From Patescibacteria group bacterium (lineage in GTDB: Bacteria; Patescibacteriota; JACPGU01): a stretch of DNA of 64,000 bases. Made by a program: the position numbers and the translations under genes. The DNA lies in NCBI GenBank assembly GCA_028718745.1, contig JAQULF010000001.1, positions 31,666 through 95,665 of the forward strand, given 5' to 3'. This document shows positions 4,752 through 60,431 of the stretch, one piece after another. Below the pieces are notes generated by a model. The model made no database searches and was not told the origin of the DNA. It saw only the letters and a program-made list of their open reading frames with translations. The first letter of the stretch is position 1. Each line of letters starts with the position of its first letter.

Positions 4752-6332
4752 CTACCTTAGAACTTTCCTAAATATCCCCGTCACCCCATCGAGAAGTTTC
4801 TGGGCTTCGGGAACTTTGAATATCGTAGAGAGAACGAGATAAATAAAGCAACCTACAAAACCGGCAATACAAGTTTGGCCAAGCAGACCGATTGTAGATA
4901 ATGTATTAAAATAATTCGCCGCGTAATACAGAGTGAAATAGGAAAAAACACCGGCAGAAATACTGAAAATCAGATATTTTCCTGAAGTCAAAAAGATCGC
5001 GTTCATATCAATCTTCTTGAATCTTTCTTTAAGTAAAACCAGCAGGAAGAAAAGATTTACAAAAGAGGCGATGACTCCGGCTAGAGCCAAGCCAACAACA
5101 TGAAATGGGATCACTTTTGTAAAAACAATGCTGCCGATAGCATTGACGATAAATGCGACCACAACTACTTTGACCGGGGTCTTCGTATCTCCGGTGGCGT
5201 AAAAAGCGCGCGCCAAAAATGGGACTAGTCCTTGCGCAACAAGCCCCAAAGCAAGATAGCCGAAAGTACGAGCCGTCCAGATAGTATTACTGACATCAAA
5301 AAGTCCGGCGCCTAAAATCAAACGAACGATATGGGCGCGAAAAACCAGCATCAAAACCATCGCCGGCATTAATAAATACAACATCATTTTAAATGTTTCG
5401 GTAAAATTCAGCACAAAAACATCATCTTTTTTCTGAGCGTGAGCGTACGAGAGAATTGGAAAAACTGACACCGCAAAAGATATTCCAATTAATCCCACCG
5501 GCAAACTAACCAGATTGGTTGCCAGATTTATAATGGCAATACTGCCATTTTCCAGTGTGGAACCGATAAGATTATCTACCAATAAATTAATTTGAACTAG
5601 GGCTAAACCAATCGTTACCGGCACCATCAGCCTCATTATTTTTACAAAATGCTCGTCCTTCCAATCAAAAACTTTTTGAAAGCGAAAGCCGACTTTGAAA
5701 AATGTGGGGACTTGCACCATCATGTGCGCGAAAGCTCCAATAACTACTCCCCAAGCCAATCCGGCCGTTCCTAAAACCGGAACAAGATATAGCGCGCCGA
5801 GAATTATTCCGATGTTGTAAAGAATGGGAGCTAGCGAATAAACGAAAAATTTTCCGAAACTATTAAGCACACCTCCGATAACAGATGAGATCGAGAAGAA
5901 AAGCGGCGAAAGCAGCATGATGCGGGTTAGAAGCGTTACTTCTTCCAATTGAACGGTATTAAATCCGGGAGTAGCGATTTTCATTATCCATGGACAGAAA
6001 ATAAAAATAACCAGCATAGCAGCAATTAAAACCACCAAGATAATATTGAGAAAGTTGCTAACCATTCTCCAGGCTTTTTTCTCATTTTTGAAAATAAGAT
6101 CGGAAAAAACCGGAATGAAAGCTGAAGACAAAGCGCCTAAAATTAACAAATTGAAAATCAAATCCGGAATTCGAAAGGCCGCGTAATAAGTATCCAGCGT
6201 CGCCCCGGCGCCAAATTCAGAAGCCAAAACACGATCTCGGAAAATACCAAGCAAGCGAGAGGCCAATGACGCCACCGCGATAATAATCGCATTTTGAGAA
6301 ACTAATGAAATTTTATCTAAAATATTTTTCAT
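4752..6332 (-). CDS. murJ: Lipid II flippase MurJ (MviN)
   Basis: 526 aa, about 14 TM segments, N-terminal RLLGIFRDRVLASEFGAGATLDTYYAAFRIPDL signature of MurJ. Confidence 0.9.
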   Translation of the reverse strand: MKNILDKISLVSQNAIIIAVASLASRLLGIFRDRVLASEFGAGATLDTYYAAFRIPDLIFNLLILGALSSAFIPVFSDLIFKNEKKAWRMVSNFLNIILVVLIAAMLVIFIFCPWIMKIATPGFNTVQLEEVTLLTRIMLLSPLFFSISSVIGGVLNSFGKFFVYSLAPILYNIGIILGALYLVPVLGTAGLAWGVVIGAFAHMMVQVPTFFKVGFRFQKVFDWKDEHFVKIMRLMVPVTIGLALVQINLLVDNLIGSTLENGSIAIINLATNLVSLPVGLIGISFAVSVFPILSYAHAQKKDDVFVLNFTETFKMMLYLLMPAMVLMLVFRAHIVRLILGAGLFDVSNTIWTARTFGYLALGLVAQGLVPFLARAFYATGDTKTPVKVVVVAFIVNAIGSIVFTKVIPFHVVGLALAGVIASFVNLFFLLVLLKERFKKIDMNAIFLTSGKYLIFSISAGVFSYFTLYYAANYFNTLSTIGLLGQTCIAGFVGCFIYLVLSTIFKVPEAQKLLDGVTGIFRKVLR

Positions 6333-9068: not shown

Positions 9069-9288
9069 ACATGGTCACGGGACAAGGTCTGGCCATGTTG
9101 AAGGCTTTGTATTTACCCGTTTTCCAGTTGATGGGATAAGGGCAATCGCCGCCTTTCGTTTTTGCCCTTGCGCACGAAAGACATATCGAGATTCTGGTTT
9201 GGTCTGAAGAAAAGGTTATAGTAGGAAGCTTTGATTTCCCTTCCTTTTTCATGTCCGAATACCTCGCACTTTGTATTTTTTGGTTCAT
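9046..9288 (-). CDS. hypothetical Cys-rich small protein (GC-rich cluster gene 1)
   Basis: 80 aa with CxxC...C...C pattern; overlaps next ORF by 23 nt. Confidence 0.35.
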   Translation of the reverse strand: MNQKIQSARYSDMKKEGKSKLPTITFSSDQTRISICLSCARAKTKGGDCPYPINWKTGKYKAFNMARPCPVTMCDFYKKA

Positions 9289-9313
9289 TAATTCTTAATG
9301 TCCGATCTTGGGT

Positions 9314-9441
9314 GGGGAAACTCCGCCCCTACAATGCGTTGGCTCCATGCTCCTGCGTGGAGCCAGTTTGTTCATTGATGTATTAAAAAATCCTTTTAAA
9401 TGCTTTATGTACATTAAGGTTCCATGCGGGAGCATGGAACC
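9314..9441. repeat. Intergenic nest of GC-rich palindromic elements related to the in-frame elements in tsaE and tlyA
   Basis: ggggaaactccgcccctacaatgcg (shares cgcccctacaa-tgc with tsaE element), gcgttggctccatgctcctgcgtggagcc (29/29 identical to tlyA element at 55384-55412), and palindrome ggttccatgcgggagcatggaacc. Confidence 0.8.
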
Positions 9442-9449
9442 AACTACAT

Positions 9450-11279
9450 TTATGAAATAATTATTGCTTCAAATTCCTCGCGTTCAATTACTTCTTTCTC
9501 AAGAAGCACCGACGCGATTTTATCTAAAATATCCTTGTGATTGGTTACGATGCCGTTCGCAACTGTTTCGGCTTTGGTCATAATAATTTGAACTTCATCG
9601 TCAATCGCTTGCGCGGTTTTTTCCGAATAATTTTTGGCTTCAGCAATATCGCGACCCAAAAAAACCATTTCGTCTTTATCATGAAAACTGATCGGCCCAA
9701 GTCGATCGCTCATACCATATTCTTTCACCATTTTACGCGCCATAGAAGTTGCTTGCGTTAAATCATTTTGCGCTCCAGTGGTTAGCTCGCCAAAAATTAA
9801 AATTTCGGATTCGCGACCAGCAAGATAAACTGCGATATCATCTTCAAAAGCGGTTTTTGATTTTAGAACGCGATCAAATTCCGGCGGATTCCAAGTGTAG
9901 CCCAAAGCTCTTCCGCGAGAGACAATGGAAATTTTTTGCACCGGATCAGCATTTGGCAAAAAGTGTGCAACCAGAGCATGGCCGGCTTCATGATAAGCCG
10001 TGATTTTTCTTTCTTCTTCGGTAATAACTTTGCTTTTTCGCTCCGGACCCATGAGGGTTTTTTCAATTGCTTCACCAATATATTCCATGCTGATTGTGGT
10101 TTTGTTATCGCGCGCGGATAATATCGCCGCTTCGTTCAAAAGATTGCGCAGATCAGCGCCGGAAAATCCCGGGGTTTTTTGCGCTATTTTAAATAAATCA
10201 ACATTGCCTTCCAAGGGTTTTGTTTTCACATGAACTTTCAAAATCGCTTCTCTTTCTTTAATATCCGGCAAATCAATCAAAACTCTTCGATCAAATCTTC
10301 CCGGACGAAGTAGTGCCGGATCCAAAACATCGGGACGGTTCGTTGCCGCCATGACAATCACACCGGAGTCGGTATCAAATCCGTCGAGTTCTACTAAAAT
10401 TTGATTCAAAGTTTGTTCTCTTTCATCATGCGATCCGCCAAGTCCTGCTCCTCTTTGACGGCCCACTGCATCTATTTCGTCTATAAAAATAATACAAGGC
10501 GCGTTTCTTTTTGCCTTGGCGAAGAGATCGCGAACGCGTGAAGCTCCGACCCCCACAAACATTTCCACAAATTCCGAACCGGAAATTGAGAAAAATGGAA
10601 CACCGGCTTCTCCGGAAACCGCTTTGGCTAACAAAGTTTTGCCCGTTCCCGGAGGTCCAAGAAGAAGTACCCCCTTGGGAATTTCGGCACCCATATCTTT
10701 ATATTTCTTCGGATTTTTCAAAAAGTCTACAATTTCAACTAGATCTTTTTTGGCTTCTTCAGATCCGGCCACATCTTTAAAAGTGACGCGGGAATCCTGC
10801 AGATTTACTCGAGCGCGAGATTTACCAAAAGACAATGCCTGCTGATTGGCGCCTTGAGCCGATCTCAACATCATCCAAACAAATCCGGCCATCAGTAAAA
10901 ATAGAAGCGCTGTCGGAAGTATATCTAACCAAATGGAACCGGTATCGCTATTTTTAATCTCGATATTGGTTTTATCCGGAGTAATTCCATAAGCGGTCAA
11001 AGAAATAGCCGCTTCCTTGTAGGCAATTTGTTCATTCTTGCCGTCTTTTGCTTCTTTAAGGAAAATATCCAGTTTGTCGCCATCAACCAAAATGCGATCG
11101 ACTTGACCTTGTTTAACCTCTTCAACAACTTGGGAGATATTAACTTGCGTAGTTTTAGTACTAGTCGTTTCAGTTGCTTTGGAATAAGCAAAACTAGCCC
11201 CTATCACCAGGATTAAAATTAGGATTAACCAATTGTTTTTTAGAATCTTTCCAAACCCGTTTTTCTTTTCGTTTGCCAT
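9450..11279 (-). CDS. ftsH: ATP-dependent zinc metalloprotease FtsH
   Basis: AAA+ Walker A GPPGTGKT, second region of homology, HEAGHAL zinc site; start placed at MANEKKNG before N-terminal TM helix (ORF track starts 62 codons upstream). Confidence 0.92.
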
Positions 11280-11430
11280 AATAGATCGATTATAGTATAT
11301 TTTGCCTTTCCTGTCAATTTTTGGCTTGAAAACGGGAAAAAAGTATAAAAACAAAGAGCGGCGACTTTCTGCGAAAGTCGCCGCCATGGGTTTGCTCTGG
11401 ATGATCCGAGAATTGAGCGGGAGGTATTCA

Positions 11431-11625
11431 TTATGGGGTAGCCACGGAGAATTTTTTGGTATCAAACCGTCTTACCAGCACACCACCTCTTGGACCTTTG
11501 AAACGGACAACCGTGATGTCCTTGCCCCTTCTGCCTTTCTCATGGCCAACCTCTACAATACCCGGAATGGTTCTGATCTCGCCATTTCCCAGATTAGTTA
11601 CCTCAAGCTTTTTTGGTAATGTCAT
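11431..11625 (-). CDS. small conserved hypothetical protein
   Basis: 64-aa basic protein MTLPKKLEVTNLGNGEIRTIPGIVEVGHEKGRRG...; not recognised. Confidence 0.35.
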   Translation of the reverse strand: MTLPKKLEVTNLGNGEIRTIPGIVEVGHEKGRRGKDITVVRFKGPRGGVLVRRFDTKKFSVATP

Positions 11626-15489: not shown

Positions 15490-16395
15490 TTGTGGCTTCT
15501 GTCACAGAACCAAAACATTAATCAAAAGACCATGTCAGCTTACGATGACTTTCAAAATAGATTCAAACTATTAGCCAGCAAGAATCCACATCTGGTTATA
15601 AATACTTTGTCTAACATTTTTACTATGAGGCTAATCGGCAATAAAACCCATGGTGATTTAGCCGAAATTGGAATGGCCGAATTTATCAATCAGTTTATGT
15701 ATGACTTTAAGAGTATCCATGTCGGCAAGGATTTATTTCGAGCCAAAGAACACGAAGAAGACATTATTATTATCAATGAAATTACAAAAACCGAATTCCC
15801 ATTAAGCTTAAAAGCGTACGGCGACGGTCCTCTCCAGCTTTCGACCGATAGTGATCAAAAAATGTTTCCATTCTTGGAAAAACAGGGAAGAAACATTACG
15901 GATAGAGACAAGATCAAAAAAATCTTTCAGTCAAAAGAATTTGCGGATTTTGATGCGATTAATGTTATGCCTCTTATCTATGATGAGAAAAAACAACGGT
16001 GCAACATAATGATTTTCGATCATAAAAAAGCTATGAGTAAAACAGAAAGAATTATCTTTATTGATAAAAATCAAAGATTTGATTCAGAAACGAGAAGGGT
16101 AATTCCAGGCAAGGGTAGATCGCATCCTATTTTTATGTTTGTTGATAAAAAAAGCAACTACATTTGTGAAGTTCGGTACGGTGGCGCATCCGCCAATGCT
16201 TTACAGAGAGGCTTGTGGACGCATACAAAAAACGCCGTTTCCTATTTTGATTCTTTGACAAACGGCTGGATTGATTATTCTCACAATCACGCTCTTGTAA
16301 CATTATTTAGTCTGGCACTTAACAGTTCGGAATATGGTCATAAATTGGCCAATGAAATATTGCAAAAAGACATTGATAGACTCAAAACGCTATGA
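15490..16395 (+). CDS. putative type II restriction endonuclease (cognate to downstream Dam-like methyltransferase)
   Basis: 301-aa ORF with no homology recognised; stop overlaps MTase start (ATGA); very AT-rich; alternative start MSAYDD at 15532. Confidence 0.4.
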   Translation: MWLLSQNQNINQKTMSAYDDFQNRFKLLASKNPHLVINTLSNIFTMRLIGNKTHGDLAEIGMAEFINQFMYDFKSIHVGKDLFRAKEHEEDIIIINEITKTEFPLSLKAYGDGPLQLSTDSDQKMFPFLEKQGRNITDRDKIKKIFQSKEFADFDAINVMPLIYDEKKQRCNIMIFDHKKAMSKTERIIFIDKNQRFDSETRRVIPGKGRSHPIFMFVDKKSNYICEVRYGGASANALQRGLWTHTKNAVSYFDSLTNGWIDYSHNHALVTLFSLALNSSEYGHKLANEILQKDIDRLKTL

Positions 16396-17582
16396 GCAAT
16401 CAACAAGATATATTTGGGAAAATAATGGTCTCAACGCCAAAAACACAGGGAATAAAATATGCCGGATCCAAACTGAAAATTTTACCCTATATTATTGATA
16501 TTGTCTCGGAATTAAAAGGAGTTAAAAAAGTGCTCGATGGTTTTACAGGAACAACTCGTGTCGCGCAAGCGCTCGCCCAGCTTGGTTATGATGTGACTGC
16601 CAGCGATATTTCCACTTGGTCGGAGGTTTTTGCCAATTGTTATTTGAAATCAAAAAAACCGGATGAGTTTTATCAAGATATTATCAACCATCTCAATGAT
16701 CTCAAGGGTTATGATGGCTGGTACACGAAGTATTACGGCGGAAAATTAACAGGGGATGATAAAAGGCCGTTTCAAGTAAAAAATACGCGCAAATTAGATG
16801 CCATAAGAGATGAAATAGAAAAATTGAATCTGGAGTGGGTTGATAAATGCGTGATTTTAACCAGTTTAATTTATGCGCTCGACTCTGTCGATAGCACTCT
16901 CGGGCATTATGTAGCCTATCTTTCTGAATGGTCGCCGAGATCACATAATGATCTGGTATTAAAACTGCCAAAAAGGTTTGAAGGCGAAGGTAAGCACAAA
17001 GTAATCCGGAGCGATATTTTTGAGACTATTGCAAATGATGAATATGATCTAGCTTATTTTGATCCGCCCTATGGCTCCAACAATGAAAAAATGCCACCTA
17101 GTCGAGTTCGCTACGCATCTTATTATCACATTTGGACAACTATTATAAAGCATGACAAGCCGGTTGTTTTTGGAAAAGTAAATCGCCGAGAAGACAGTCG
17201 GGATTTGGTAGCTGGTTCGGTATTTGAAGAATTTAGAAAGGATAAAAATGGTTCTTTTGTCGCTATGCAGGCGTTGCGCAAATTGGTAAGAGAAACAAAG
17301 GCGCGCTATATATTGTTGTCATATAGCTCCGGTGGTAGAGCCACAAAACAGGAACTCAACGACATAATAAATGAATCGGGTAAATTATTAAAGGCTGTTG
17401 AAATTGACTACAAGAAAAATGTGATGGCTAATATGCGCTGGACGCACGAATGGATCAATAGTGATGAAAAATATCATGAATATCTTTTTCTAATGGAAAA
17501 GAATCCTGTAAAAAGTAGCTATTTAGATCAAGAGCGAATATTTATGAATAAAAAAGTTCTGGTTTGCAATCCGATTGGTTAA
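16392..17582 (+). CDS. N6-adenine DNA methyltransferase, Dam/D12 class
   Basis: N-terminal IKYAGSKLKILPYI (Dam KWAGGK-like motif), LDGFTGTT, catalytic YFDPPYG (DPPY). Confidence 0.8.
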   Translation: MSNQQDIFGKIMVSTPKTQGIKYAGSKLKILPYIIDIVSELKGVKKVLDGFTGTTRVAQALAQLGYDVTASDISTWSEVFANCYLKSKKPDEFYQDIINHLNDLKGYDGWYTKYYGGKLTGDDKRPFQVKNTRKLDAIRDEIEKLNLEWVDKCVILTSLIYALDSVDSTLGHYVAYLSEWSPRSHNDLVLKLPKRFEGEGKHKVIRSDIFETIANDEYDLAYFDPPYGSNNEKMPPSRVRYASYYHIWTTIIKHDKPVVFGKVNRREDSRDLVAGSVFEEFRKDKNGSFVAMQALRKLVRETKARYILLSYSSGGRATKQELNDIINESGKLLKAVEIDYKKNVMANMRWTHEWINSDEKYHEYLFLMEKNPVKSSYLDQERIFMNKKVLVCNPIG

Positions 17583-22257: not shown

Positions 22258-22265
22258 TAAGTTAG

Positions 22266-22333
22266 GATTAAATGATTAAATGAATAAAGGATTGTATTTT
22301 CTAATCATTTAGTCTTTTATTCCTTTATTCATT
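22266..22333. repeat. AT-rich inverted-repeat element (AAATGATTAAATGAATAAAGGA family), copy 1
   Basis: gattaaatgattaaatgaataaagga ... taatcatttag ... tcctttattcatt; related copy at 53490-53578. Confidence 0.7.
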
Positions 22334-22373
22334 GAAATCTAAATGCTATAATAAACAAAAATAAAACAAATCT

Positions 22374-23402
22374 ATGTTGGAAGATTCTACTAAAAAAACT
22401 GTTCTCTTTGAAATTTCGTGGCTAAGTATTATTAAAGTTGTCGCCATTATTCTGGGCGTCTATTTGCTTTTCTATCTGGCAGACATTTTTCTGATCTTGT
22501 TTGTTGTTTTTATTCTAGCCTCCGCCCTTTCTCCTCTGGTAGACACGATGAAAAGCAAACTCAAAATACCTCGGATTATGTCGATCCTTCTAATCTACAT
22601 CGGACTTTTGTTAATTGTTGCCTTGACCATTTATGCCATCATTCCTCCTGCAATAGAGCAGCTGCAAAATCTATCGCAAAATCTACCTGATTATGCTAAA
22701 AAAATAACTTCGCTTTTCAGTTCGCTAAGTGAATCTCCCGTATCAACCACCAATTCTATTCAGTCGGCTTCTTCCACTTTGGGAAATGTAGCCGGAACTT
22801 TCGTTCAATCGGCCGGGACTTTCTTCGGCGGGTTAACTACTGTTTTCTATATTCTAATTTTAACCTTATTTCTGCTTTTGGAAGAAGATGGCATTCGCAA
22901 ATTTTTTATTTCCTTGCTACCCATCAGCCAGAAATCTTATGTTATCGAAGTTAGCAAGAAAGTCGCCGACAAAATGGGAGCTTGGCTTATCGGACAGGTT
23001 TCCTTGATGGGTATAATAGGTTTCGTTACTGCTCTAGGATTGTGGATTATCGGCGTACCTTATGCTTTGACTCTTGGCATTATCGCTTTCTTCCTAGAAG
23101 CAGTACCTACTGTCGGGCCCATCATCGCCGCTATTCCGGCCGTAATTATTGCCTATATGGATGCTCCCTGGAAAGCGGTGGTTGTCCTAATCTTTGCGAC
23201 TTTAATTCAACAATTAGAAAATCAATTTCTTGTTCCAAAAATAATGCAAAAAGCTCTTGGGATTTCTCCGTTTGTAACGCTCGTAGCGCTTCTTGTCGGC
23301 GGTAAACTAGCAGGGGTAATGGGCGTGCTTCTCGCCGTCCCAACCGTCGCTGCTCTCTCTGTTCTATCTAAGGAGTGGCCGAATATCAGGAAAAGGATCT
23401 AG
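22374..23402 (+). CDS. AI-2E family transporter (PerM/YhhT-like)
   Basis: 342 aa, 8 TM, typical AI-2E family architecture; paralog at 27991..28998. Confidence 0.85.
   Translation: MLEDSTKKTVLFEISWLSIIKVVAIILGVYLLFYLADIFLILFVVFILASALSPLVDTMKSKLKIPRIMSILLIYIGLLLIVALTIYAIIPPAIEQLQNLSQNLPDYAKKITSLFSSLSESPVSTTNSIQSASSTLGNVAGTFVQSAGTFFGGLTTVFYILILTLFLLLEEDGIRKFFISLLPISQKSYVIEVSKKVADKMGAWLIGQVSLMGIIGFVTALGLWIIGVPYALTLGIIAFFLEAVPTVGPIIAAIPAVIIAYMDAPWKAVVVLIFATLIQQLENQFLVPKIMQKALGISPFVTLVALLVGGKLAGVMGVLLAVPTVAALSVLSKEWPNIRKRI
23331..23402. repeat. Direct repeat copy 1 (3-prime end of AI-2E transporter gene)
   Basis: about 70 bp, about 85 percent identical to 26690-26761. Confidence 0.75.
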
Positions 23403-26275: not shown

Positions 26276-26680
26276 ATGAAACAACCAAAGAAATTAAATA
26301 ATGAAATTACTTTTTACCAAACACCCGACGGAGGAGTAAATATTGAGGTATTATATGCTGATGAAAACATCTGGCTAACCCAAAAACTGATGGCGGAACT
26401 TTTTGGATGTTCTGCAGATAATATATCTCTTCACTTAAAAAATATTTACAAAGAAAAAGAATTGGATGAAAGTTCAACTACCAAGGATTCCTCGGTAGTT
26501 CAAAAAGAAGGTAATAGAGCGATAAAAAGAAAATTCAACTACCAAGGATTTCTCGGTAGTCCAAACTTTGATAGAGAAAGAATATGAAGTTTATAGAAAA
26601 AAACAAGACAAGTTTTTTGAAAGTGATTTTGATAAAGAGGTAAAAAAACTAATTCAAGAATCCAAAAAGAAAAAGATACG
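26276..26680 (+). pseudogene. RhuM-family protein remnant (internal deletion plus frameshift)
   Basis: 26276-26587 encodes RhuM N-terminus (ITFYQTPDGGVNIEVLYADENIWLTQKLMAELFG...VQKEGNRAIKRK); RhuM-like C-terminus EVYRKKQDKFFESDFDKEVKKLIQESKKKKIRG is in another frame at 26585-26680; full-length RhuM is about 340 aa. Confidence 0.55.
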
Positions 26681-26689
26681 CGGCTAATC

Positions 26690-26761
26690 TGCATGCCGTC
26701 CCAACCGTCGCGGCTCTCTCTGTTCTATCTAAAGAATGGCCAAATATTAGGAAAAGAATTT
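26690..26761. repeat. Direct repeat copy 2 (diverged duplicate of AI-2E gene 3-prime end)
   Basis: gccgtcccaaccgtcgcggctctctctgttctatctaaagaatggccaaatattaggaaaagaatttaa vs gene end at 23331-23402. Confidence 0.75.
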
Positions 26762-26799
26762 AATTGCACTCTCATTTTTTGGCTTATCTAACTTAACTG

Positions 26800-27990: not shown

Positions 27991-28998
27991 ATGCCTCAAT
28001 CCACAAATTCAAATGTCAGTTACGAAATTTCCTGGTCCAGCATCTTAAAAGTGTTGGTTGTTATTGCGTTTATTTATCTGCTCTTTTACTTATCCGGCGT
28101 GATTTTGATGCTTTTTACCGTTATTATCTTGGCTGTTTCCCTCTCTCCAATTGTTGAAAAATTAAAAAACAAGCTCCACATACCCCGAATCTTGGCGATT
28201 ACCATAATTTATATTTTAATTCTGGCTTTTGTCTTTTTAACCGTTTACACTATTGTGCCACCGGTGATGGAACAGGTAAAAAACCTTTATCAGATCTTGC
28301 CGGATTACGCCAAAAATATAGTTCCCTTTTTAAAATCGGTAAATAGTTATAGTCCGGCCAGTAGCGCAACGACAGGTGGGATCGCCCAAACATTAAGCGG
28401 ATTTTTTGGCAGTATTTTAAATTTCTTCCTGATCTTGGTTCTAACATTTTTCTTATTAATTGAGGAAGGTGGTTTTGTTAAATACATCGTTTCGCTTTTT
28501 CCGGTCTCTGATAAAGCTTATGCAATCACCATCGGCAAAAAAATATCCAACAAAATCGGCTCCTGGTTTGCCGGACAGATTTTAATTATGGTAATTATCG
28601 GAGTAGTGAATGCCTTAGCTATGTGGGCCGTCGGAATTCCTTATGCTCTGGTTCTGGGACTACTAGCCTTTATTTTTGAATCGGTACCCAATATCGGGCC
28701 CATTGCCGCTGCTGCCCCAGCCTTGGTTTTGGCCTACATCGATGCCCCATGGAAAGCGGTCTATGTCTTGGTTTTCACTCTCGTTTTACACCAGCTTTCC
28801 AATCAATTTCTAGTACCAAAAGTTATGGGGAAAATTTTGAATATCTCCGCCTTTGTGATAATTTTAGGTTTAATTATAGGAGGGGAGTTAGCCGGAATAA
28901 CCGGTATGATTCTAGCTCTACCCGTAGTAGCTGCCATTCAGGTAATGGCGCAAGAATGGCCGAATATTAAAACGAGAATTCCAAATAATGAAAAATAG
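27991..28998 (+). CDS. AI-2E family transporter, paralog 2
   Basis: 335 aa, collinear with 22374..23402 (ISWSSILKVLVVIAFIYLLFYLS...; C-terminal EWPNIK). Confidence 0.85.
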   Translation: MPQSTNSNVSYEISWSSILKVLVVIAFIYLLFYLSGVILMLFTVIILAVSLSPIVEKLKNKLHIPRILAITIIYILILAFVFLTVYTIVPPVMEQVKNLYQILPDYAKNIVPFLKSVNSYSPASSATTGGIAQTLSGFFGSILNFFLILVLTFFLLIEEGGFVKYIVSLFPVSDKAYAITIGKKISNKIGSWFAGQILIMVIIGVVNALAMWAVGIPYALVLGLLAFIFESVPNIGPIAAAAPALVLAYIDAPWKAVYVLVFTLVLHQLSNQFLVPKVMGKILNISAFVIILGLIIGGELAGITGMILALPVVAAIQVMAQEWPNIKTRIPNNEK

Positions 28999-30246: not shown

Positions 30247-30374
30247 AAACAGATTTTATCATAAATAGCCAGATTTTCCAAGAACAAAAAGAAATCTCGG
30301 CTTGCCGAGATTTCTTTAAAATTGTTTTCTTACTTTCTTGTTTTCTTGCTTTATTGCTTTCTTGTTTTTTTGTC

Positions 30375-30932
30375 CTAAAACTGTACCTTTACCGCTTCTC
30401 TCTCCGCTGCTGCCGCTTCAAACATCAACTTGGGAGTTTTGAATCCTAGAATGCCGGCAACCAACATGGTTGGAAACACAGCAATTTTGATGTTAAATTC
30501 TCGAACATTGGCATTGTAGTATCTTCGAGAAACCTCAATCTTATCCTCGGTTTCGGTCAATTGAGTCTGAAGATCCAAGAAATTTTGATTCGCTTTCAAA
30601 TCAGGATAAGCTTCAGCTACGGCAAAAAGAGATTTCAAGGTGTTGGTTAGCATATTTTCCGCTTCCGCTCTATCAGCCGGAGTCTTGGCATTCATGGCTG
30701 CCGTTCTGGCCTTAGTAACTTCTTCAAAAACTCCTTTTTCATGAGCTGCATAGCCCTTGACTGTTTCAACCAAGTTTGGAATCAGGTCATATCTCCTTTT
30801 TGTCTGCACATCAATGTCGGCAAAAGCCTCATTGCAGCGGACATTTAAATTAACCAATCCGTTAAAAATAGCAATTATCCATAAAAGAATAATGGATCCA
30901 ACTACGATTAATCCAATTACTAGTGATGACAT
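30375..30932 (-). CDS. lemA: LemA family protein
   Basis: N-terminal TM then NGLVNLNVRCNEAFADIDVQTKRRYDLIPNLVETVKGYAAHEKGVFEEVTKAR typical LemA. Confidence 0.85.
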   Translation of the reverse strand: MSSLVIGLIVVGSIILLWIIAIFNGLVNLNVRCNEAFADIDVQTKRRYDLIPNLVETVKGYAAHEKGVFEEVTKARTAAMNAKTPADRAEAENMLTNTLKSLFAVAEAYPDLKANQNFLDLQTQLTETEDKIEVSRRYYNANVREFNIKIAVFPTMLVAGILGFKTPKLMFEAAAAEREAVKVQF

Positions 30933-31212: not shown

Positions 31213-32964
31213 ATGAAAAAAATCCTTTCCTCAATCTTCTTGCTTTCTTGCTTTCTTGCTTTCTTGCTTTCTTGTCCCCCCGCTTCCGCCCGAACCCCCG
31301 ATCAAATTTACGATGATTATGTCCAAGATCTAACAACCGATATTATTGTAAACCAAGACTCTTCCTTAGATATTACCGAAAATATAACCTGGGACTTTGC
31401 CGATATTCCTGATAAACACGGTATTTTTCGAATGTTGCCTACTTTTTATCAGAAAACGAACAGTGAAAAGGTAAAAATACCCATCGAAAATATTAGCGTT
31501 ACCGACCTTAATAATAATCCCATACCATATAGTGAATCGACCAGTTCCGGTATCTTGAGCTTGAAAATCGGCGATGCAGACAAGACTGTCAGTGGGATTG
31601 TGAACTATGTTATTAAGTATAGATATAAGAATACTATCCGTTTCGACAATCAAAATTTTGATGAATTTTACTGGAATCTTAATGGTAATTTTTGGGAAAA
31701 GGAAATTGATAAATTTACCGCCAACATCACTTTTCCATCAGGAATCACAAAAAATAATGTAATTGAAATTAATAAATATGACGGTAGTTTTGGGTCTAAA
31801 AGTAATGTTTTATCAGACTATAAGTGGATCGCTGACAATACTATTCAGGTGACCAGCCAAAAAACTCTGTTGCCAAAAGAGGGCATTACTCTCTCGGTTA
31901 CTTTTCCAAAAAATATCATTTCTCCACCTGTTTTATCGTTTTGGGAAAAATACGGCGATCTGATTCTCGGGCTACTTCTTTTGGCACTGCCTATTCTAGT
32001 CTTTTTAATCTGCTTCACACTGTGGTGGAAATACGGCCGTGATATTGGCCCGGGCCGTGCCGTCGCACCTGAATTTGAAATTCCGGACGATATGAATCCG
32101 ATGGAAATGAGTGTTTTTTTAAGTAACGGCAGTCTTAAGTCCAGCGCTATCTCGGCTGCCATTGTGAACTTAGCAGTTAGGGGGTATTTGAAAATTGAAG
32201 CTGTACCAAAACAGGGAATATTTTCATCTGCTGATACCAAATTGATAAAATTGAACAAAGCGACCGAGAAATTGACTGATGCGGAAAAAAATCTATTAAA
32301 TTATCTCTTGGGAAGTAGCAATGAAGTAAAAATTTCAGACCTAAAAAATCAATTCTATAAATATATTCCAAAACTTAAGGAGACTTGTTTTAATAAACTA
32401 TCCGATCAAAAGATGTTCGAAAAGAAAGGGTTTGGCATTCAGTCAACTATGCTTGTCATCGGCGCTCTCGGGATAGGAGGATTATTTTTCGCCCCAGCCA
32501 TAATCTCTACTCCGATTTTTTATGTGATTTCCATAGTTTCAATTGCCATTATCTTTATCTTTGCCGCTTTGATGCCTAAAAGAAGTCCTGAAGGTGAAGA
32601 CCTGCTGTGGAGAATCAAAGGGTTTAAGATGTACATGATGACAGCCGAAAAATACCGCCAGAAATTTATTGAAAAGGAAGGTCTTTTTGAAAAGTTTCTG
32701 CCTTATGCTATGCTCTTTGGCATTACCGGTCTTTGGATTAGCAAGATGAAAGAAATTTACGGAGAAGAGTATTTTAATACTTATCATCCGATCTGGTATA
32801 CAGGATATATTGGGAATTTTAATATCGATAATTTCAGCAGTCAGCTTTCGGCCGTATCAAGCTCTATGTCCTCAACCATGAGCTCATCTCCTTCTTCTTC
32901 CGGTTCCGGAGGGGGAGGCTTTTCCGGTGGTGGTGGTGGCGGTGGCGGTGGCGGAAGCTGGTAA
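31213..32964 (+). CDS. DUF2207-type membrane protein with C-terminal Gly/Ser-rich tail
   Basis: 583 aa; signal peptide, large extracytoplasmic domain, TM segments, C-terminal SGSGGGGFSGGGGGGGGGGSW; genomic pairing with lemA is typical. Confidence 0.7.
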   Translation: MKKILSSIFLLSCFLAFLLSCPPASARTPDQIYDDYVQDLTTDIIVNQDSSLDITENITWDFADIPDKHGIFRMLPTFYQKTNSEKVKIPIENISVTDLNNNPIPYSESTSSGILSLKIGDADKTVSGIVNYVIKYRYKNTIRFDNQNFDEFYWNLNGNFWEKEIDKFTANITFPSGITKNNVIEINKYDGSFGSKSNVLSDYKWIADNTIQVTSQKTLLPKEGITLSVTFPKNIISPPVLSFWEKYGDLILGLLLLALPILVFLICFTLWWKYGRDIGPGRAVAPEFEIPDDMNPMEMSVFLSNGSLKSSAISAAIVNLAVRGYLKIEAVPKQGIFSSADTKLIKLNKATEKLTDAEKNLLNYLLGSSNEVKISDLKNQFYKYIPKLKETCFNKLSDQKMFEKKGFGIQSTMLVIGALGIGGLFFAPAIISTPIFYVISIVSIAIIFIFAALMPKRSPEGEDLLWRIKGFKMYMMTAEKYRQKFIEKEGLFEKFLPYAMLFGITGLWISKMKEIYGEEYFNTYHPIWYTGYIGNFNIDNFSSQLSAVSSSMSSTMSSSPSSSGSGGGGFSGGGGGGGGGGSW

Positions 32965-37348: not shown

Positions 37349-37370
37349 TTAATAATTCTAATACATTTAA

Positions 37371-37753
37371 TGGACCTGGAGGGAATCGGACCCTCGTGCA
37401 AAAAGTTAAAAAAGCAGCCTCTACAAGTTTAGTTCCGGTTGGTATTTTGGACAGAAGTAACTTGTCCCGCCAAAGGCGGGAAACCGAAACAAAATAATTC
37501 TATCCTATCCTTAATAGTCTTAACCCCGCCTACCAAGGAATACCTGGGCGGGGAGCAGCCCAATAAGTTGACACCGCATTCATATCCTTGGGCGAAATAT
37601 GGTGCGATGCCTGCTTGTCGTTTTTTAGGCGAAAGCAGGGGCAAAATTTGTTTTGCCTTGTGTTGTTGTTTGATTAGTTTTAAGAGTTTACAAACATCAC
37701 TCTACTTGCATCCGCTTTTTTAAGGATCTTTTTGGCGATACCAATGCAGGCCC
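37371..37753 (-). ncRNA. ssrA: tmRNA (SsrA)
   Basis: minus-strand 5-prime GGGCCUG pairs with 3-prime CAGGUCC-A giving G3-U70; T-arm GAGGGTCCGATTCCCTC; internal tag frame GGC AAA ACA AAT TTT GCC CCT GCT TTC GCC TAA (GKTNFAPAFA) about 96 nt from 5-prime end; TATAAT just upstream. Confidence 0.8.
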
Positions 37754-53489: not shown

Positions 53490-53578
53490 TGATAAATAAT
53501 TATGAATAAATGACTAAAAGATTAAATGATTGAAAAAACTGAAATTATAGTCCTTTATTCATTTAATCATTTATTCAT
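53490..53578. repeat. AT-rich inverted-repeat element (AAATGATTAAATGAATAAAGGA family), copy 2
   Basis: atgaataaatgac ... gattaaatgattg ... tcctttattcatttaatcatttattcat. Confidence 0.7.
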
Positions 53579-53673
53579 GACGATCTTTTCTAATTCTATT
53601 CTAAATCCCCTAAAACATCAACTCTTTGTAAAAAAACTAGCATTCTTACCATTTTTTTGCTATAATACTTCTT

Positions 53674-54615: not shown

Positions 54616-55155
54616 TTATAAAGGATTTGCAGTATTTAGGAGACGATTTAAAACTCCTATTTTTCTTTGCAAACTTGCTTTAATAATGGCATCTCGAATA
54701 ATTATTTTTCCCGGAAGGATAGAAAGAATTCGTTCTGAACTGATTATTCTTCTTTCGGAGTAAAATCTTTTTTTAACTACCAAAGTCAAAATATTTTGAA
54801 ATTGCGTATCAAAAAGAAAGTCCTCCAAAATTCCCAGTTTTTGACCATTTTGAGTCAAAACTTGGCTTCCCAGCAACGGCACTTTTTTATCCAAAATGTC
54901 TTTTATTTTGAATACTTCTAGGACTTCAACGATGCTGTCGCGATCTTTTACCAGCACTCCATCAGCATAAAATTCGACAATATCTTTGAATGTAACGACA
55001 CGGTTCCTCCCCCAAAAAAACTGCTTTTTAATTAAAAGCGCTAATACTTTGCCATTTTCCGGATCAACTATAATATCCTTGATGGCATCCAATTTCTTGC
55101 CAGCAATTGATTCAATTATAGGCAATCCGATTATTTTTCTAGCATGTAGTAACAT
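54616..55155 (-). CDS. PRC-barrel domain protein
   Basis: two PRC-barrel-like repeats (IIGLPIIESIAGKKLDAIKDIIVD...). Confidence 0.55.
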   Translation of the reverse strand: MLLHARKIIGLPIIESIAGKKLDAIKDIIVDPENGKVLALLIKKQFFWGRNRVVTFKDIVEFYADGVLVKDRDSIVEVLEVFKIKDILDKKVPLLGSQVLTQNGQKLGILEDFLFDTQFQNILTLVVKKRFYSERRIISSERILSILPGKIIIRDAIIKASLQRKIGVLNRLLNTANPL

Positions 55156-55928
55156 GGTAACATTTTAAATTTTAAATTAAAAAGAAATTCTTTATTTCCT
55201 TTCGCCCCCAAAATAGGTGACTCAACCTCTCCTAAAACTTCGAATCCATTTTCCTCGCACCATTTCCTAAAATCTTCTAATAACTTCTGATGAATCTTCG
55301 GATCCTTAATCACTCCCTTTATCTTGTCGACAATACTTTTCCCGGCTTCAAATTGTGGTTTGAAAAGAATGACAATTTCAGGAGCGTTGGCTCCATGCTC
55401 CTGCGTGGAGCCTGAATGTACAATATTCTTAATCACCGGCAAAATCTTTTTTAAAGAAATAAATGACACATCAATTACAAATAGATCTATTTTTTCCGGC
55501 AAGCTTTCTAAATATCTAAAATTTACTCCTTCCATCACCACTACTCTTGGATCATTTCTTAAGCGCCAATCTAATTGTCCTTTGCCCACATCGATAGCAT
55601 AAACTTTTTCAGCTCCGTTTTGCAAGGCAAAATCCGTAAACCCGCCGGTAGAAGAACCGATGTCGGCCACTATTTTGTTTTTGAAATTTAATTTGAAAGC
55701 TTTCGCCGCCGCTTCTAATTTTTCGGCGCCTCTGCCCACATATTTTGAGGTTTCCAAAATACCAATTTTAGCATCTTCGTCGAACTTTGATCCCGGCTTG
55801 GTTTCTTTTTTATCATCAACTAAAACCTGCCCGGCCATAATTAAGGCTTGAGCCTTTTCGCGAGAATCCGTTAATTTCCTTTCAAAGAGAAGTAGATCGA
55901 GGCGTTTTTTAAAAGCTTTTTTCATCAT
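55131..55928 (-). CDS. tlyA: TlyA family rRNA 2-prime-O-methyltransferase (S4 + FtsJ domains), with about 10-aa in-frame insertion
   Basis: RLDLLLFERKLTDSREKAQALIMAGQV (S4), ADIGSSTGGFTDFALQNGAEKVYAIDVG, DVSFISL; extra HSGSTQEHGANAP before KPQFEAGK. Confidence 0.85.
   Translation of the reverse strand: MMKKAFKKRLDLLLFERKLTDSREKAQALIMAGQVLVDDKKETKPGSKFDEDAKIGILETSKYVGRGAEKLEAAAKAFKLNFKNKIVADIGSSTGGFTDFALQNGAEKVYAIDVGKGQLDWRLRNDPRVVVMEGVNFRYLESLPEKIDLFVIDVSFISLKKILPVIKNIVHSGSTQEHGANAPEIVILFKPQFEAGKSIVDKIKGVIKDPKIHQKLLEDFRKWCEENGFEVLGEVESPILGAKGNKEFLFNLKFKMLPCYYMLEK
55379..55412. repeat. GC-rich palindromic element inside tlyA
   Basis: caggagc-gttggctccat-gctcctg overlapping ggctcca-tgctcctgcg-tggagcc; 29-bp identical to intergenic copy at 9336-9364. 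Confidence 0.85.
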
Positions 55929-58647: not shown

Positions 58648-58712
58648 AATGGCCCCTTTCTAAAAAATTATTTTTATATTAATTGGATTGTTGCTTTCTT
58701 GTTTCCTTGTCT

Positions 58713-59480
58713 TTAAAGTTCTTCGTCTTTCAATAATTCCGCCAATTTCTTCTCCAGCTGTTCTTTTCTTTCCGCTTCGGTCATTTGCTTCCTAACCGGT
58801 TTTCTCTCTTCCATTTCAGCTTCTTTGGCCGGTTTTTCCTTGTCCGCATCACTTTGTGAATCAATGTGGGCGGGTTCAACAATCTCTTCCTTAGCAATTT
58901 CTCTCTCCTTTTTATTTGTTTCAACCTCTCCCTGCTCGGGCGCAATATATTGCGCCCCTACGGGTTCGTCTGATTCTTCTTCTTGATTCTTGATTCCTAA
59001 TTCTTGATTCTCTTCTTTAATTTTCTCAACCGGAGCTTCAACCGCTTCTACACCAACTGGCGGATTTTCTTCTTTGACTTCCTCAACTTCTTTCTTTTTA
59101 GCAAACTTTCTTGGTCTTCTCGTTTCTTCTTCGTTCTTTTCCTCAAAACCTCTCTTCGGTTTATCTAGTGCTCCTTCTTCAAAGAAAGGGGATCCTTCTA
59201 TAAAATCGACGATCAAATAGCGGAGAATTTTTTCATTAAGGTTTAATTCTTTGTTTAATTTATTGGTTTCTTCAGGTTTAATATCAAAAATGAAGACATA
59301 ATAATAGCCAAAACTATTTTTGGCAATTTTATAGATCAATTTTCGCTTACCCCAAAAGACCTCTTTTTCAACCTTGCCGCCTTTGGATTCAATCAGTTTT
59401 TTGACATCTTTCGCAATATCCGCCGCTCTGTCTTCGGTGTAATTTTCACTAACAATAAACGAGATTTCGTATTTTTTCAT
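58713..59480 (-). CDS. rpsF: 30S ribosomal protein S6 with about 150-aa Glu/Lys-rich C-terminal extension
   Basis: MKKYEISFIVSENYTEDRAADIAKDVKKLIESKGGKV...WGKRKLIYKI; rpsF-ssb-rpsR order. Confidence 0.85.
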   Translation of the reverse strand: MKKYEISFIVSENYTEDRAADIAKDVKKLIESKGGKVEKEVFWGKRKLIYKIAKNSFGYYYVFIFDIKPEETNKLNKELNLNEKILRYLIVDFIEGSPFFEEGALDKPKRGFEEKNEEETRRPRKFAKKKEVEEVKEENPPVGVEAVEAPVEKIKEENQELGIKNQEEESDEPVGAQYIAPEQGEVETNKKEREIAKEEIVEPAHIDSQSDADKEKPAKEAEMEERKPVRKQMTEAERKEQLEKKLAELLKDEEL

Positions 59481-60247: not shown

Positions 60248-60431
60248 GACGACACCTCCATATAAGATTTTAAGGCGCGGTCTTCAGCCTTAATTAGTTA
60301 AATTATAGCACAATATAGCAAAAAAACAAATTAAATTTGTTTTTTTGATTTCTTGCTTTTTTGTTTTCTTATCCTATTTCCCCAAATTCCTCAACGCTTC
60401 TTTGAGTTTTTTTCGGAGTCTTTGACATTGC

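What the first reader, a model, noticed from the sequence alone, without database searches (positions are those of the whole stretch)
55379..55412. Palindromic element in-frame in tlyA, identical over 29 bp to an intergenic copy
The 29-mer gcgttggctccatgctcctgcgtggagcc at 55384-55412 is identical to 9336-9364. It forms alternative hairpins, caggagc/gctcctg and ggctcca/tggagcc. In TlyA it adds about 10 residues, HSGSTQEHGANAP, between the DVSFISL motif and KPQFEAGK, compared with the canonical pattern ALLKPGGELVALIKPQFEAGR. An exact copy in both coding and non-coding contexts is strong evidence of a transposing or recombining repeat.
Basis: seen in the sequence. Interest (0 to 1): 0.8.

Follow-up and report, generated by a model that had tools for sequence, protein, structure and literature searches.

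The report
REP-type hairpin repeat inside tlyA
A 39-base hairpin-forming mobile repeat (a "REP" element, elsewhere found flanking the gene of its own tyrosine transposase) sits in frame inside the rRNA methyltransferase gene tlyA of a Patescibacteria genome. It adds a short surface loop to the protein. This is a new family of a known kind of bacterial repeat, unusual for how often it sits inside genes.

Summary
The 29-mer occurs exactly twice (55384-55412, 9336-9364; 0 expected by chance), and a third, diverged, inverted copy lies at 9418-9441.

The repeat unit is about 39 nt: a GTT tag, a 10-bp imperfect hairpin (GGCTCCATGC-TCCT-GCGTGGAGCC, with a T·G wobble), and a 12-nt tail.
- In tlyA (55386-55424) it is a single unit read in frame as IVHSGSTQEHGAN. 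AlphaFold places most of it in a low-confidence loop of an otherwise confident fold.
- The closest orthologue lacks it. A 73%-identical orthologue has it at the same site.
- The intergenic copy is a 107-nt inverted doublet (9338-9444), 5 nt after the ftsH stop codon.

The same unit is multi-copy in other low-GC genome bins. It lies mostly inside long ORFs (LepA, LigA, DnaG), and 17 of 28 such sites use one reading frame.

In two metagenome contigs, two canonical copies flank a gene that passes NCBI's curated model for REP-associated tyrosine transposase. Homologous transposase genes in two other Patescibacteria genomes are flanked by related hairpins.

Verdict: a REP/REPIN-RAYT family in Patescibacteria, which is a new member of a known kind. 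No transposase lies in this window, so mobilisation is inferred.

The parts
55386..55424 (+). REP singlet inside tlyA: GTT tag, 24-nt hairpin and the tail TGAATGTACAAT. Its top strand is the + strand, and tlyA reads the opposite strand. It encodes residues 169-181, IVHSGSTQEHGAN.
   Evidence: Exact repeat. The tail is shared with unrelated loci and with the 5' flank of the L078 RAYT gene. Codon phase 0.
55389..55412 (+). Hairpin core GGCTCCATGC-TCCT-GCGTGGAGCC: 10 bp with one T·G wobble on this strand and a C·A mismatch on the other.
   Evidence: Folds. Covariation across 18 family members: 97.8% of cells paired, 3 pairs changed on both sides, 0 of 500 shuffles as good.
55131..55928 (-). tlyA (S4 and FtsJ-type rRNA 2'-O-methyltransferase domains), the host gene of the insertion.
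   Evidence: ORF. Pfam PF01479 and PF01728 on the identical product. Named homologues. AlphaFold mean pLDDT 89; the insert runs from the end of helix 159-172 into loop 173-183, which has low confidence.
9338..9444 (.). Intergenic REPIN-like doublet: two REP units in inverted orientation, tail to tail, 107 nt. It ends 5 nt after the ftsH stop codon.
   Evidence: Inverted repeat I5. Folds as one long hairpin: DNA z = -6.6, RNA z = -7.8. Coordinates.
9338..9377 (+). Left REP unit of the doublet. Tag and hairpin are identical to the tlyA copy. The tail AGTTTGTTCATTG matches the 3' flank of the L078 RAYT gene.
9405..9444 (-). Right REP unit of the doublet: GTTGGTTCCATGCTCCCGCATGGAACC with the tail TTAATGTACATAA. 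It carries compensatory stem changes (C-G to T-A, and T·G to T-A).
   Evidence: (I10).
9450..11465 (-). ftsH, context only. The doublet lies immediately 3' of it.
   Evidence: ORF list. Stop codon TAA at 9450-9452.

Best explanation
The 29-mer is the core of a REP (repetitive palindromic) element belonging to a REP/REPIN-RAYT system of Patescibacteria.

The unit is a 5' GTT(G) tag, a GC-rich imperfect 10-bp hairpin whose outer stem GGCTCCA/TGGAGCC is conserved, and a 12-13-nt tail. Full-size units are inverted doublets. In related genomes the same two ends flank a roughly 180-aa HUH tyrosine (Y1) transposase gene of the REP-associated type (RAYT). The window's intergenic doublet looks like an internally deleted copy of that transposase-carrying unit. 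The tlyA copy looks like a solo of its transposase-5' end.

Inferred mechanism, by analogy with E. coli RayT: the transposase binds the hairpin on single-stranded DNA. It tells the strands apart through the T·G versus C·A imperfection and the tag, then cuts and rejoins next to the hairpin, which copies or moves the repeat.

In tlyA the unit landed in the loop-coding stretch between the helix KKILPVIKN... and the strand IVILFKPQFE. It sits in a frame without stop codons and is simply translated as a 13-residue, mostly disordered, hydrophilic loop. The enzyme fold is not predicted to be disturbed.

Shown here: the repeat family, its hairpin covariation, presence/absence among orthologues, the in-frame translation, and the REP-RAYT association in related contigs.

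Inferred: that a RAYT exists in this genome, and that it, rather than recombination, placed the copy in tlyA.
For: - The repeat is exact and non-random.
- The family has a conserved tag, outer stem and tails. GTTGGYTC seeds give 66 matches in 265 kb of low-GC loci, most of them family members and a few stray matches.
- The hairpin is supported by compensatory changes.
- Inverted doublets are common: window 9338-9444, and L001, L005, L013, L021 and L043.
- L076 and L078 carry two canonical copies, identical over the 27 nt of tag and hairpin to the window's. They are in inverted orientation with tails pointing inward, and they flank an ORF that scores 107.3 bits (curated cut-off 80, E = 5.9e-31) on NCBIfam NF047646, REP-associated tyrosine transposase. 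The same ORF reaches only 27.6 bits on the IS200 model, whose cut-off is 55. It also matches Pfam Y1_Tnp, and it carries an HUH motif (NHIHLIV) and a YIHNNPV motif.
- The window tails match the two flanks of that gene: the tlyA tail ATGTACAATA matches the 5' flank including the start codon, and the doublet's left tail TGTTCATTGA matches the 3' flank.
- L043 has a truncated RAYT fragment beside a cluster of REPs.
- 307 homologues with E <= 1e-10 were found. Of those that carry a source name, most are named Patescibacteria or one of its lineages (Parcubacteria, Doudnabacteria, Pacebacteria).
- In L093 and L094 the homologous RAYT genes are flanked by longer hairpins that keep the GGCTCCA/TGGAGCC outer stem.
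- Orthologues show presence and absence. In tlyA, L071 is empty and L070 is filled. Three LepA sites vary among L045, L051 and L021.
- AlphaFold gives the fold mean pLDDT 89, with residues 171-180 at mean 60.
- The tlyA copy is present in an independent assembly.
Against: - No Y1 transposase was found in the 64-kb window. The best HMM E-value there was 3.9, and the ORFs next to the intergenic copy have no Pfam match.
- The rest of the genome was not available, so the RAYT link rests on other organisms that carry the identical 27-mer.
- The tag is GTTG, or GCTG in L094. It is not the GTAG that E. coli RayT needs (Di Nocera 2013, PMC3733652).
- No clean empty/filled pair between near-identical genomes was found, so neither the insertion boundaries nor any target motif is proven. 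A 33-nt parse of the tlyA insert (GSTQEHGANAP) fits the L071 comparison about as well as the 39-nt parse.
- The tlyA copy is 37/39 identical between the window and L070, while the gene is only 69.7% identical. Simple old vertical inheritance of a neutral insert does not predict this.
Confidence: 0.72

Rival explanations
1. It is a selfish palindromic repeat of the Rickettsia-palindromic-element type. It spreads, or is homogenised, by recombination or gene conversion, or by replication slippage at hairpins, with no dedicated transposase. The proximity to RAYT genes in other genomes would then be because those genes are themselves targets or carriers.
For: - No transposase in the window.
- Copies at orthologous sites are much better conserved than their host genes: 37/39 against 69.7% in tlyA, P = 1.2e-4. 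LepA site 3 is 27/27 against 80.8%. This fits gene conversion from master copies.
- Insertions are not clean. Flanking codons are replaced at LepA site 1, and a different palindrome occupies LepA site 3 in L021.
Against: - The flanking of RAYT genes by the same or related hairpins recurs in four separate loci: L076/L078, L043, L093 and L094.
- The window tails correspond to both ends of the RAYT unit. This is the defining REPtron pattern, not a chance association.
Confidence: 0.15
2. The hairpins are host-selected functional elements rather than mobile DNA. The intergenic doublet would be a 3' mRNA stabiliser or terminator for ftsH, and the tlyA insert would be a selected protein loop or an mRNA structure that tunes translation.
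For: - The doublet starts 5 nt after the ftsH stop and folds very stably as RNA on the ftsH strand: -49.7 kcal/mol, z = -7.8.
- REPs in other bacteria are often 3' of genes and are thought to act as RNA elements.
- There is a strong frame bias towards the hydrophilic reading GSTQEHGA: 17 of 28 sites, P about 2e-7.
- The element is highly conserved between the window and L070.
Against: - The same sequence occurs in all six frames, in unrelated genes and in non-coding DNA.
- The closest TlyA orthologue, and all but one of the 29 aligned orthologues, lack this element.
- In most intragenic copies the mRNA carries the weaker strand, with the C·A mismatch.
- No terminator-like site was called on the ftsH strand.
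- No Rfam family matches at or above its gathering score.
- Frame bias is equally explained by purifying selection removing disruptive insertions.
Confidence: 0.08
3. It is an assembly artefact or a chimeric join that duplicated a 29-mer.
For: The source is a metagenome-assembled genome. The intergenic copy could not be found in a second assembly.
Against: - The tlyA ORF is intact and in frame.
- The identical protein and locus occur in an independent Logan assembly.
- A different species (L070) has the element at the same site.
- The same unit occurs in dozens of loci from unrelated assemblies.
Confidence: 0.01
4. It is a MITE, or an end-remnant of an IS200/IS605-family element or a DDE-transposase insertion sequence, rather than a REP/RAYT system.
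For: - The transposase-carrying unit in L078 is only 646 bp from end to end (198-843), which is IS200-like in size.
- The protein matches Pfam Y1_Tnp, 'Transposase IS200 like'.
- The doublets look like MITEs with terminal inverted repeats.
Against: - The protein passes the curated RAYT model and fails the IS200 model: 27.6 bits against a cut-off of 55.
- The ends are inverted hairpins, as in REPtrons. IS200/IS605 ends are not inverted repeats (my own knowledge of the family).
- No target-site duplication is visible at the doublets.
Confidence: 0.04

Closest known systems
REP / REPIN elements with REP-associated tyrosine transposases (RAYT, REPtrons) of Escherichia and Pseudomonas (Nunvar 2010; Bertels & Rainey 2011, PMC3116915; Ton-Hoang 2012; Bertels 2017, PMC5581495)
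   Same: - A short GC-rich imperfect palindrome with a tetranucleotide tag at its 5' foot.
- Both singlets and inverted doublets.
- The transposase gene is flanked by the repeats.
- The transposase passes NCBIfam NF047646.
- There are G·T pairs in the stem.
- The doublet lies just 3' of a gene.
   Different: - The tag is GTTG (GCTG in L094), not GTAG.
- The host is Patescibacteria. The RAYT papers I read do not mention this group.
- The protein is only about 32% identical to E. coli RayT, and only over the C-terminal 60 residues.
- A large share of the copies found are inside genes, not extragenic.
Intragenic REPs of Opitutus terrae and Rickettsia conorii (RPE-4, RPE-6) described by Di Nocera et al. 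2013 (PMC3733652), and the longer Rickettsia palindromic elements (RPE-1; Ogata 2000, cited from my own knowledge)
   Same: - Palindromic repeats inserted in frame in housekeeping genes, DNA ligase among them.
- Singlets and dimers that add 10-30 residues.
- Inserts shown by comparison with shorter orthologues.
   Different: - Those REPs carry GTAG or CGTC tags, and RPE-1 is 100-150 bp with no known transposase.
- Here the unit is 39 nt and GTTG-tagged.
- Here there is a strong bias to one reading frame.
- Here the element keeps near-identical sequence at orthologous sites in diverged genes.
IS200/IS605-family insertion sequences and their palindrome-associated derivatives
   Same: A Y1 HUH transposase fold (Pfam PF01797), subterminal hairpins recognised on single-stranded DNA, and a small size.
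   Different: The protein fails the curated IS200 model. The ends are inverted copies of one hairpin. The non-autonomous copies are as short as 39 nt.
GC-rich palindromic clusters of AT-rich mitochondrial genomes (yeast GC clusters; Volvox and placozoan palindromic repeats, e.g. PMC2670323, PMC7813641)
   Same: GC-rich hairpins that spread through AT-rich, reduced genomes and sometimes sit in coding sequence.
   Different: They are organellar, have no associated transposase and have unrelated sequence. This is only an analogy.

Membership tests
REP/REPIN-RAYT system | A short (about 20-40 nt) imperfect palindrome repeated in the genome | tested here: met
   24-nt hairpin with a T·G wobble. Three copies in 64 kb of the window, and multi-copy in other genome bins. 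Hairpin covariation.
REP/REPIN-RAYT system | Inverted doublets (REPINs) separated by a short spacer | tested here: met
   Window 9338-9444, 107 nt. Doublets also in L001, L005, L013, L021 and L043.
REP/REPIN-RAYT system | A RAYT (Y1 HUH transposase of the REP-associated type) gene flanked by the same repeats | tested here: met
   Met in related contigs only. In L076 and L078 the ORF scores 107.3 bits on NF047646 (cut-off 80) and is flanked by two canonical units. L043 has a fragment. L093 and L094 have homologues flanked by related hairpins. Not met within the window itself. The rest of this genome was not available.
REP/REPIN-RAYT system | A conserved GTAG (or CGTC) tetranucleotide at one foot of the hairpin | tested here: not met
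   All copies carry GTTG, that is GTT followed by the first stem G. L094 has GCTG. The tag position and architecture are the same, but the sequence differs from both superfamilies of Di Nocera 2013.
REP/REPIN-RAYT system | Predominantly extragenic location | tested here: not met
   28 of 39 distinct sites lie in open frames of at least 150 aa. One of these is the REP upstream of the L076 RAYT gene and is not truly coding. The sample was gathered by pattern search and is small.
REP/REPIN-RAYT system | RAYT-dependent cleavage or transposition of the REP | not testable with these tools
   This needs biochemistry or genetics.
Rickettsia palindromic elements (RPE) | Palindromic repeat inserted in frame in protein genes and co-translated | tested here: met
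   tlyA. LepA, LigA and DnaG in other bins.
Rickettsia palindromic elements (RPE) | Sequence homology to RPE families, a length of 100-150 bp, and a Rickettsiales host | tested here: not met
   The unit is 39 nt and the host is Patescibacteria. No Rfam or other match. I did not align it directly to RPE sequences.
IS200/IS605 family | The transposase meets the curated IS200/IS605 TnpA model | tested here: not met
   NF033573 scores 27.6 bits against a cut-off of 55.
Known RNA families (Rfam 15) | A match at or above the gathering score | tested here: not met
   Nothing at either site with gathering thresholds. With E-value thresholds there are only sub-threshold miRNA-precursor-like matches, which reflect a long hairpin.

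The most novel reading that the evidence does not exclude
In Patescibacteria the REP-RAYT system may not be just an extragenic passenger. It may routinely write short hairpin-encoded loops into essential proteins (TlyA, LepA, LigA, DnaG) and then keep those intragenic copies homogenised. That would happen through RAYT-mediated replacement or gene conversion, and would explain why copies stay near-identical while the host genes diverge to saturation at synonymous sites. On this reading, a domesticated transposase system is a standing source of protein-loop variation in reduced genomes, and loop 'hot spots' are repeatedly re-occupied by different palindromes.
Probability: 0.2. Interest if true: 0.7.

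Novelty: new member of a known kind. Interest (0 to 1): 0.45.

Why it matters
REP/REPIN-RAYT systems have been studied almost only in Proteobacteria, and they are defined as extragenic. This finding adds three things.

1. It shows a family in Patescibacteria (the candidate phyla radiation). The transposase gene is widespread there (307 homologues with E <= 1e-10). Its repeats share a conserved outer stem across lineages whose LepA proteins are only about 40-80% identical, segment by segment.

2. Many copies sit in frame inside housekeeping genes. This matters for annotation and phylogenomics of these genomes, because short hairpin-encoded inserts such as GSTQEHGAN are not homologous protein characters.

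3. It gives a tractable case for asking how reduced genomes tolerate mobile hairpins in coding DNA.

The excess conservation of copies at orthologous sites also bears on the open question of how REPIN populations are maintained.

Tried and rejected
- **Rfam.** Nothing was found at either site with gathering thresholds over the whole window. An E-value search of 9150-9550 gave only sub-threshold miRNA-like long-hairpin matches.
- **Viral contigs.** The exact 24-mer has 0 matches, so there is no sign of a phage origin.
- **Pfam on neighbouring ORFs.** I scanned the three small ORFs next to the intergenic copy and seven other unannotated ORFs. No transposase was found.
- **PDB sequence search with the RAYT.** No hit at E <= 0.01.
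- **Literature.** Searches for the peptide, the DNA motif, and CPR/Patescibacteria combined with palindromic-element or REPIN/RAYT terms found nothing specific.
- **Second assembly of the intergenic copy.** Look-ups through the 80-aa ORF and through FtsH found no record. Look-ups of the two closest named RAYT homologues (P0124, P0131) also found no record.
- **L083 and L085 as further tlyA orthologues.** I considered this because of their identical tail. It is rejected: tblastn shows they are other genes, which in turn shows that the tail belongs to the element.
- **Absence of stop codons in all six frames as an adaptation.** Not pursued. A GC-rich 27-mer is often stop-free by chance, and the tlyA-type tail has a TGA in one frame.
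- **CRISPR repeat, intein, translational bypass.** These do not fit. The copies are scattered singly, are 39 nt long, and are in frame without stops.
- **Taxonomy of the bins labelled Gammaproteobacteria.** The label on the low-GC bins CAZAVD, CAYNCE and CAZFWC was not verified.
Full report
**1. The observation**

The 29-mer GCGTTGGCTCCATGCTCCTGCGTGGAGCC is present at 9336-9364 and 55384-55412, both on the + strand. There are no further matches with up to 3 mismatches and none in 100 shuffles.

A degenerate hairpin pattern finds a third copy at 9418-9441, GGTTCCATGCGGGAGCATGGAACC. It is inverted relative to the other two (3 matches against 0.02 expected).

Repeat finding extends the similarity beyond the 29-mer. 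The two direct copies are 90% identical over 39 nt. The tlyA copy is 86% complementary over 37 nt to 9408-9444. And 9338-9388 pairs with 9394-9444 as a 51-nt imperfect inverted repeat (D14, I10, I5).

The gene at 55131-55928 (minus strand, 265 aa) is tlyA. Its identical product carries Pfam S4 and FtsJ domains and is named a TlyA family RNA methyltransferase of a Patescibacteria group bacterium. The 29-mer is codon-aligned and reads GSTQEHGANA.

**2. Anatomy of the repeat**

I aligned copies from the window and from other genomes. The unit has three parts:
- a tag, GTT;
- a 24-nt hairpin, GGCTCCATGC-TCCT-GCGTGGAGCC;
- a tail of about 12 nt, of two types: A-TTTGTTCATTGA or nnAATGTACAATA.

The stem has 10 pairs with a T·G wobble on this strand, which becomes a C·A mismatch on the other strand. 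Across 18 distinct family members, 97.8% of stem cells pair. Three pairs show changes on both sides, in 11 cells, and no shuffle of 500 matches the covariation score. The outer seven pairs (GGCTCCA/TGGAGCC) are almost invariant. The inner three pairs and the loop vary.

The tail TGAATGTACAAT next to the tlyA hairpin recurs at unrelated loci that are not tlyA: L085:137, L083:140, L076:1726 and L077:2810. It therefore belongs to the element. That places the tlyA unit at 55386-55424: 39 nt, phase 0, residues 169-181, IVHSGSTQEHGAN. A 33-nt parse (GSTQEHGANAP) fits the comparison with the empty orthologue about equally well, so the exact boundaries remain open.

The intergenic copy is a 107-nt inverted doublet, tail to tail, at 9338-9444. 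It ends 5 nt after the ftsH stop codon and folds as one long hairpin (DNA z = -6.6; RNA on the ftsH strand -49.7 kcal/mol, z = -7.8). No Rfam family matches at either site.

**3. Is the tlyA copy an insertion, and is it real?**

The identical TlyA and its locus occur in an independent Logan assembly (L069).

Among 29 orthologues, the stretch between the helix KKILPVIKN and the strand IVILFKPQFE is hypervariable in length.
- The closest orthologue, P0003/L071 (77% identical), has the canonical length and no hairpin.
- P0002/L070 (73% identical) has the same element at the same site with two nucleotide changes.
- Other orthologues carry unrelated repeats there. L072 has CCTGCC-tcgcc-GGCAGG followed by CATGATTCA repeats. 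L074 has GTATTAAGTATTAAG.

AlphaFold with this alignment gives a confident fold (mean pLDDT 89). It shows helix 159-172, a loop at 173-183 with low confidence (residues 171-180 average 60), and strand 184-189. The insert is therefore a helix extension plus a disordered surface loop. An assembly artefact is excluded for this copy. I could not find the intergenic doublet in a second assembly.

**4. The family elsewhere**

A scan of one genome per species with the degenerate hairpin returned chance palindromes in high-GC genomes. It also returned the same unit, with its tag and tail, many times in low-GC bins:
- three bins labelled uncultured Gammaproteobacteria (CAZAVD, CAYNCE, CAZFWC; label not verified);
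- bins labelled Patescibacteria, Saccharibacteria and Microgenomates.

The exact 24-mer occurs in 10 metagenome stretches and in no viral contig.

Most of these copies lie inside long open frames, for example LepA at three sites, NAD-dependent DNA ligase and DnaG primase. The LepA orthologues L045, L051 and L021 differ in presence or absence at the three sites. At site 3, L021 has a different palindrome (CTGGGTTTTAAAACCCAG) where L045 and L051 have the REP.

Of 39 distinct sites, 28 lie in open frames of at least 150 aa, and 17 of those 28 use one of the six frames (GSTQEHGA, where the gene reads the bottom strand). P is about 2e-7. A few of these sites are orthologous to each other, and one is the REP upstream of the L076 RAYT gene, so the count is slightly inflated.

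The window's own LepA has no copy. By tblastx it is about 40-80% identical, segment by segment, to those LepAs. The identical 27-mer is therefore shared by quite divergent genomes.

**5. The link to a transposase**

No transposase is in the window. I built a small HMM from E. coli RayT and six plasmid-borne relatives. I searched it against every open frame of at least 70 aa in the low-GC loci and the window.

It hit an ORF in L076 and L078 (E = 1.9e-22). These carry the same sequence and come from two metagenomes. The ORF is flanked on both sides by canonical copies of the unit, in inverted orientation with tails pointing inward (L078 198-224 and 817-843).

The protein has these properties:
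- NCBIfam NF047646, REP-associated tyrosine transposase: 107.3 bits, cut-off 80, E = 5.9e-31.
- NCBIfam IS200 model: 27.6 bits, cut-off 55, so it fails.
- Pfam Y1_Tnp: E = 7e-9.
- It carries NHIHLIV (HUH) and YIHNNPV motifs. It is about 32% identical to E. coli RayT over the last 60 residues.

The tails in the window correspond to the two flanks of this gene. The tlyA tail ATGTACAATA matches the 5' flank including the start codon. The left tail of the doublet, TGTTCATTGA, matches the 3' flank. So the window's doublet looks like an internally deleted derivative of the transposase-carrying unit, and the tlyA copy looks like a solo of its 5' end.

A truncated RAYT fragment lies beside a REP cluster in L043, a Patescibacteria MAG.

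The RAYT has 307 homologues with E <= 1e-10. Of those that carry a source name, most are named Patescibacteria or one of its lineages. I fetched two of them, L093 and L094. Both are flanked by longer hairpins that keep the GGCTCCA/TGGAGCC outer stem. L094 has the tag GCT/AGC, and one of its copies lies inside a glycosyltransferase ORF.

**6. Interpretation**

The finding is a REP singlet, with a REPIN-like doublet elsewhere in the window. Both belong to a REP-RAYT family of Patescibacteria.

By analogy with E. coli RayT (in vitro work of Ton-Hoang 2012 and Messing 2012, cited in PMC5581495), the transposase would recognise the tagged, imperfect hairpin on single-stranded DNA and cut and rejoin beside it. 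That step is inferred, not shown.

In tlyA the unit is simply translated. The bias towards the hydrophilic frame, with the weaker hairpin strand in the mRNA, is most simply explained by selection removing disruptive insertions.

The rival explanations are recombination-driven spread, a host-selected function, an IS200-type MITE, and an artefact. They are weighed in their own sections of this report.

**7. Comparison with what is known**

REPs, REPINs and RAYT-flanked 'REPtrons' are well described. Intragenic in-frame REPs have been reported in Opitutus terrae and Rickettsia conorii (RPE-4, RPE-6), including in DNA ligase (Di Nocera 2013, PMC3733652).

This family meets the structural and RAYT-association criteria. 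It does not carry the GTAG or CGTC tag, and it is not mainly extragenic. I found no paper describing it or describing REP-RAYT systems in Patescibacteria, but the searchable library is incomplete. I therefore file it as a new member of a known kind.

**8. What remains unexplained**

- The tlyA copy is 37/39 identical between the window and L070, while the rest of the gene is 69.7% identical and third codon positions are 43.5% identical (P = 1.2e-4). L070 was found by protein homology, so this comparison is unbiased. Re-insertion at a hot spot, gene conversion from master copies, or selection on the DNA could each explain it.
- The same protein loops are occupied by different palindromes in different lineages.
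- The empty-site orthologue L071 reads GTA AAT TCT where the element's tail reads GTA CAT TCA. This could be chance, a target preference or a scar.

Noticed in passing
window 22258-22340 and 53496-53581: AT-rich arrays with an 8-bp period (AATGATTA / AATGAATA). They are 73 nt long and 77% complementary to each other, and both lie between genes. This looks like a second dispersed repeat family (D2, I1).
   Followed up: no
window 26468-26504 and 26529-26565: Two tandem copies, 92% identical, of a hairpin unit GAAAGTTCAACTACCAAGGATTCCTCGGTAGTTCAAA. They lie at the 3' end of the ORF 26276-26587 (D15).
   Followed up: no
window 23334-23401, 26695-26762, 28952-28980: A 68-nt repeat, 90% identical, that matches the 3' ends of two paralogous membrane-protein genes (22374-23402 and 27991-28998). 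The middle copy is a stray fragment, possibly a gene remnant (D7, D9).
   Followed up: no
window 37368-37753 (-): Rfam finds a full-length tmRNA (120.8 bits), but ARAGORN reports no tmRNA in the window. It may be an atypical form.
   Followed up: no
window 30311-30383, 31229-31285, 58672-58728, 60334-60382: Arrays of TTTCTTGC with an 8-nt period at four places (D1). They are probably low-complexity K/Q/E-rich coding tails or spacers.
   Followed up: no
window 15490-17582 (+): A D12-class N6-adenine DNA methyltransferase (16392-17582, Pfam E = 1.8e-25) lies directly after an unannotated 301-aa ORF. This may be a restriction-modification pair.
   Followed up: partly
TlyA orthologues: L072 (tlyA at 118-924), L074 (tlyA at 2273-3019), and proteins P0006, P0014, P0021, P0007, P0016, P0029, P0041: The same TlyA loop carries other repeat-derived inserts in other lineages. 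Examples are a CCTGCC/GGCAGG hairpin with CATGATTCA repeats, GTATTAAGTATTAAG, and peptides such as YLILDIKE...KKYSISSIQY that look like translated AT-rich palindromes. The loop is a general hot spot for repeat insertions.
   Followed up: partly
L021 and L081, LepA site 3 (codon alignment columns about 412-423): Where L045 and L051 carry the REP, L021 carries a different perfect palindrome, CTGGGTTTTAAAACCCAG, and the region has the same length.
   Followed up: partly
L043 5366-5620 (-), with REP cluster 4863-5421 and further copies near 7220-7270: An N-terminal RAYT fragment (HUH motif NHLHLI) whose open frame runs into a REP. It lies beside a dense intergenic cluster of REP singlets, half-units and doublets with several inner-stem variants.
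   Followed up: partly
L068, inside the DNA ligase ORF: The ligase also contains VGTGLRPVQNRTGLKPVPT, which looks like the translation of yet another palindromic repeat, in addition to the GSTQEHGAN insert.
   Followed up: no
Genome contigs records CAZAVD, CAYNCE, CAZFWC (loci L001-L068 subset): Bins with 25-35% GC are labelled 'uncultured Gammaproteobacteria' yet carry the Patescibacteria-type REP in many genes. By tblastx their LepA is about 40-80% identical, segment by segment, to the window's. The taxonomic label may be wrong.
   Followed up: no
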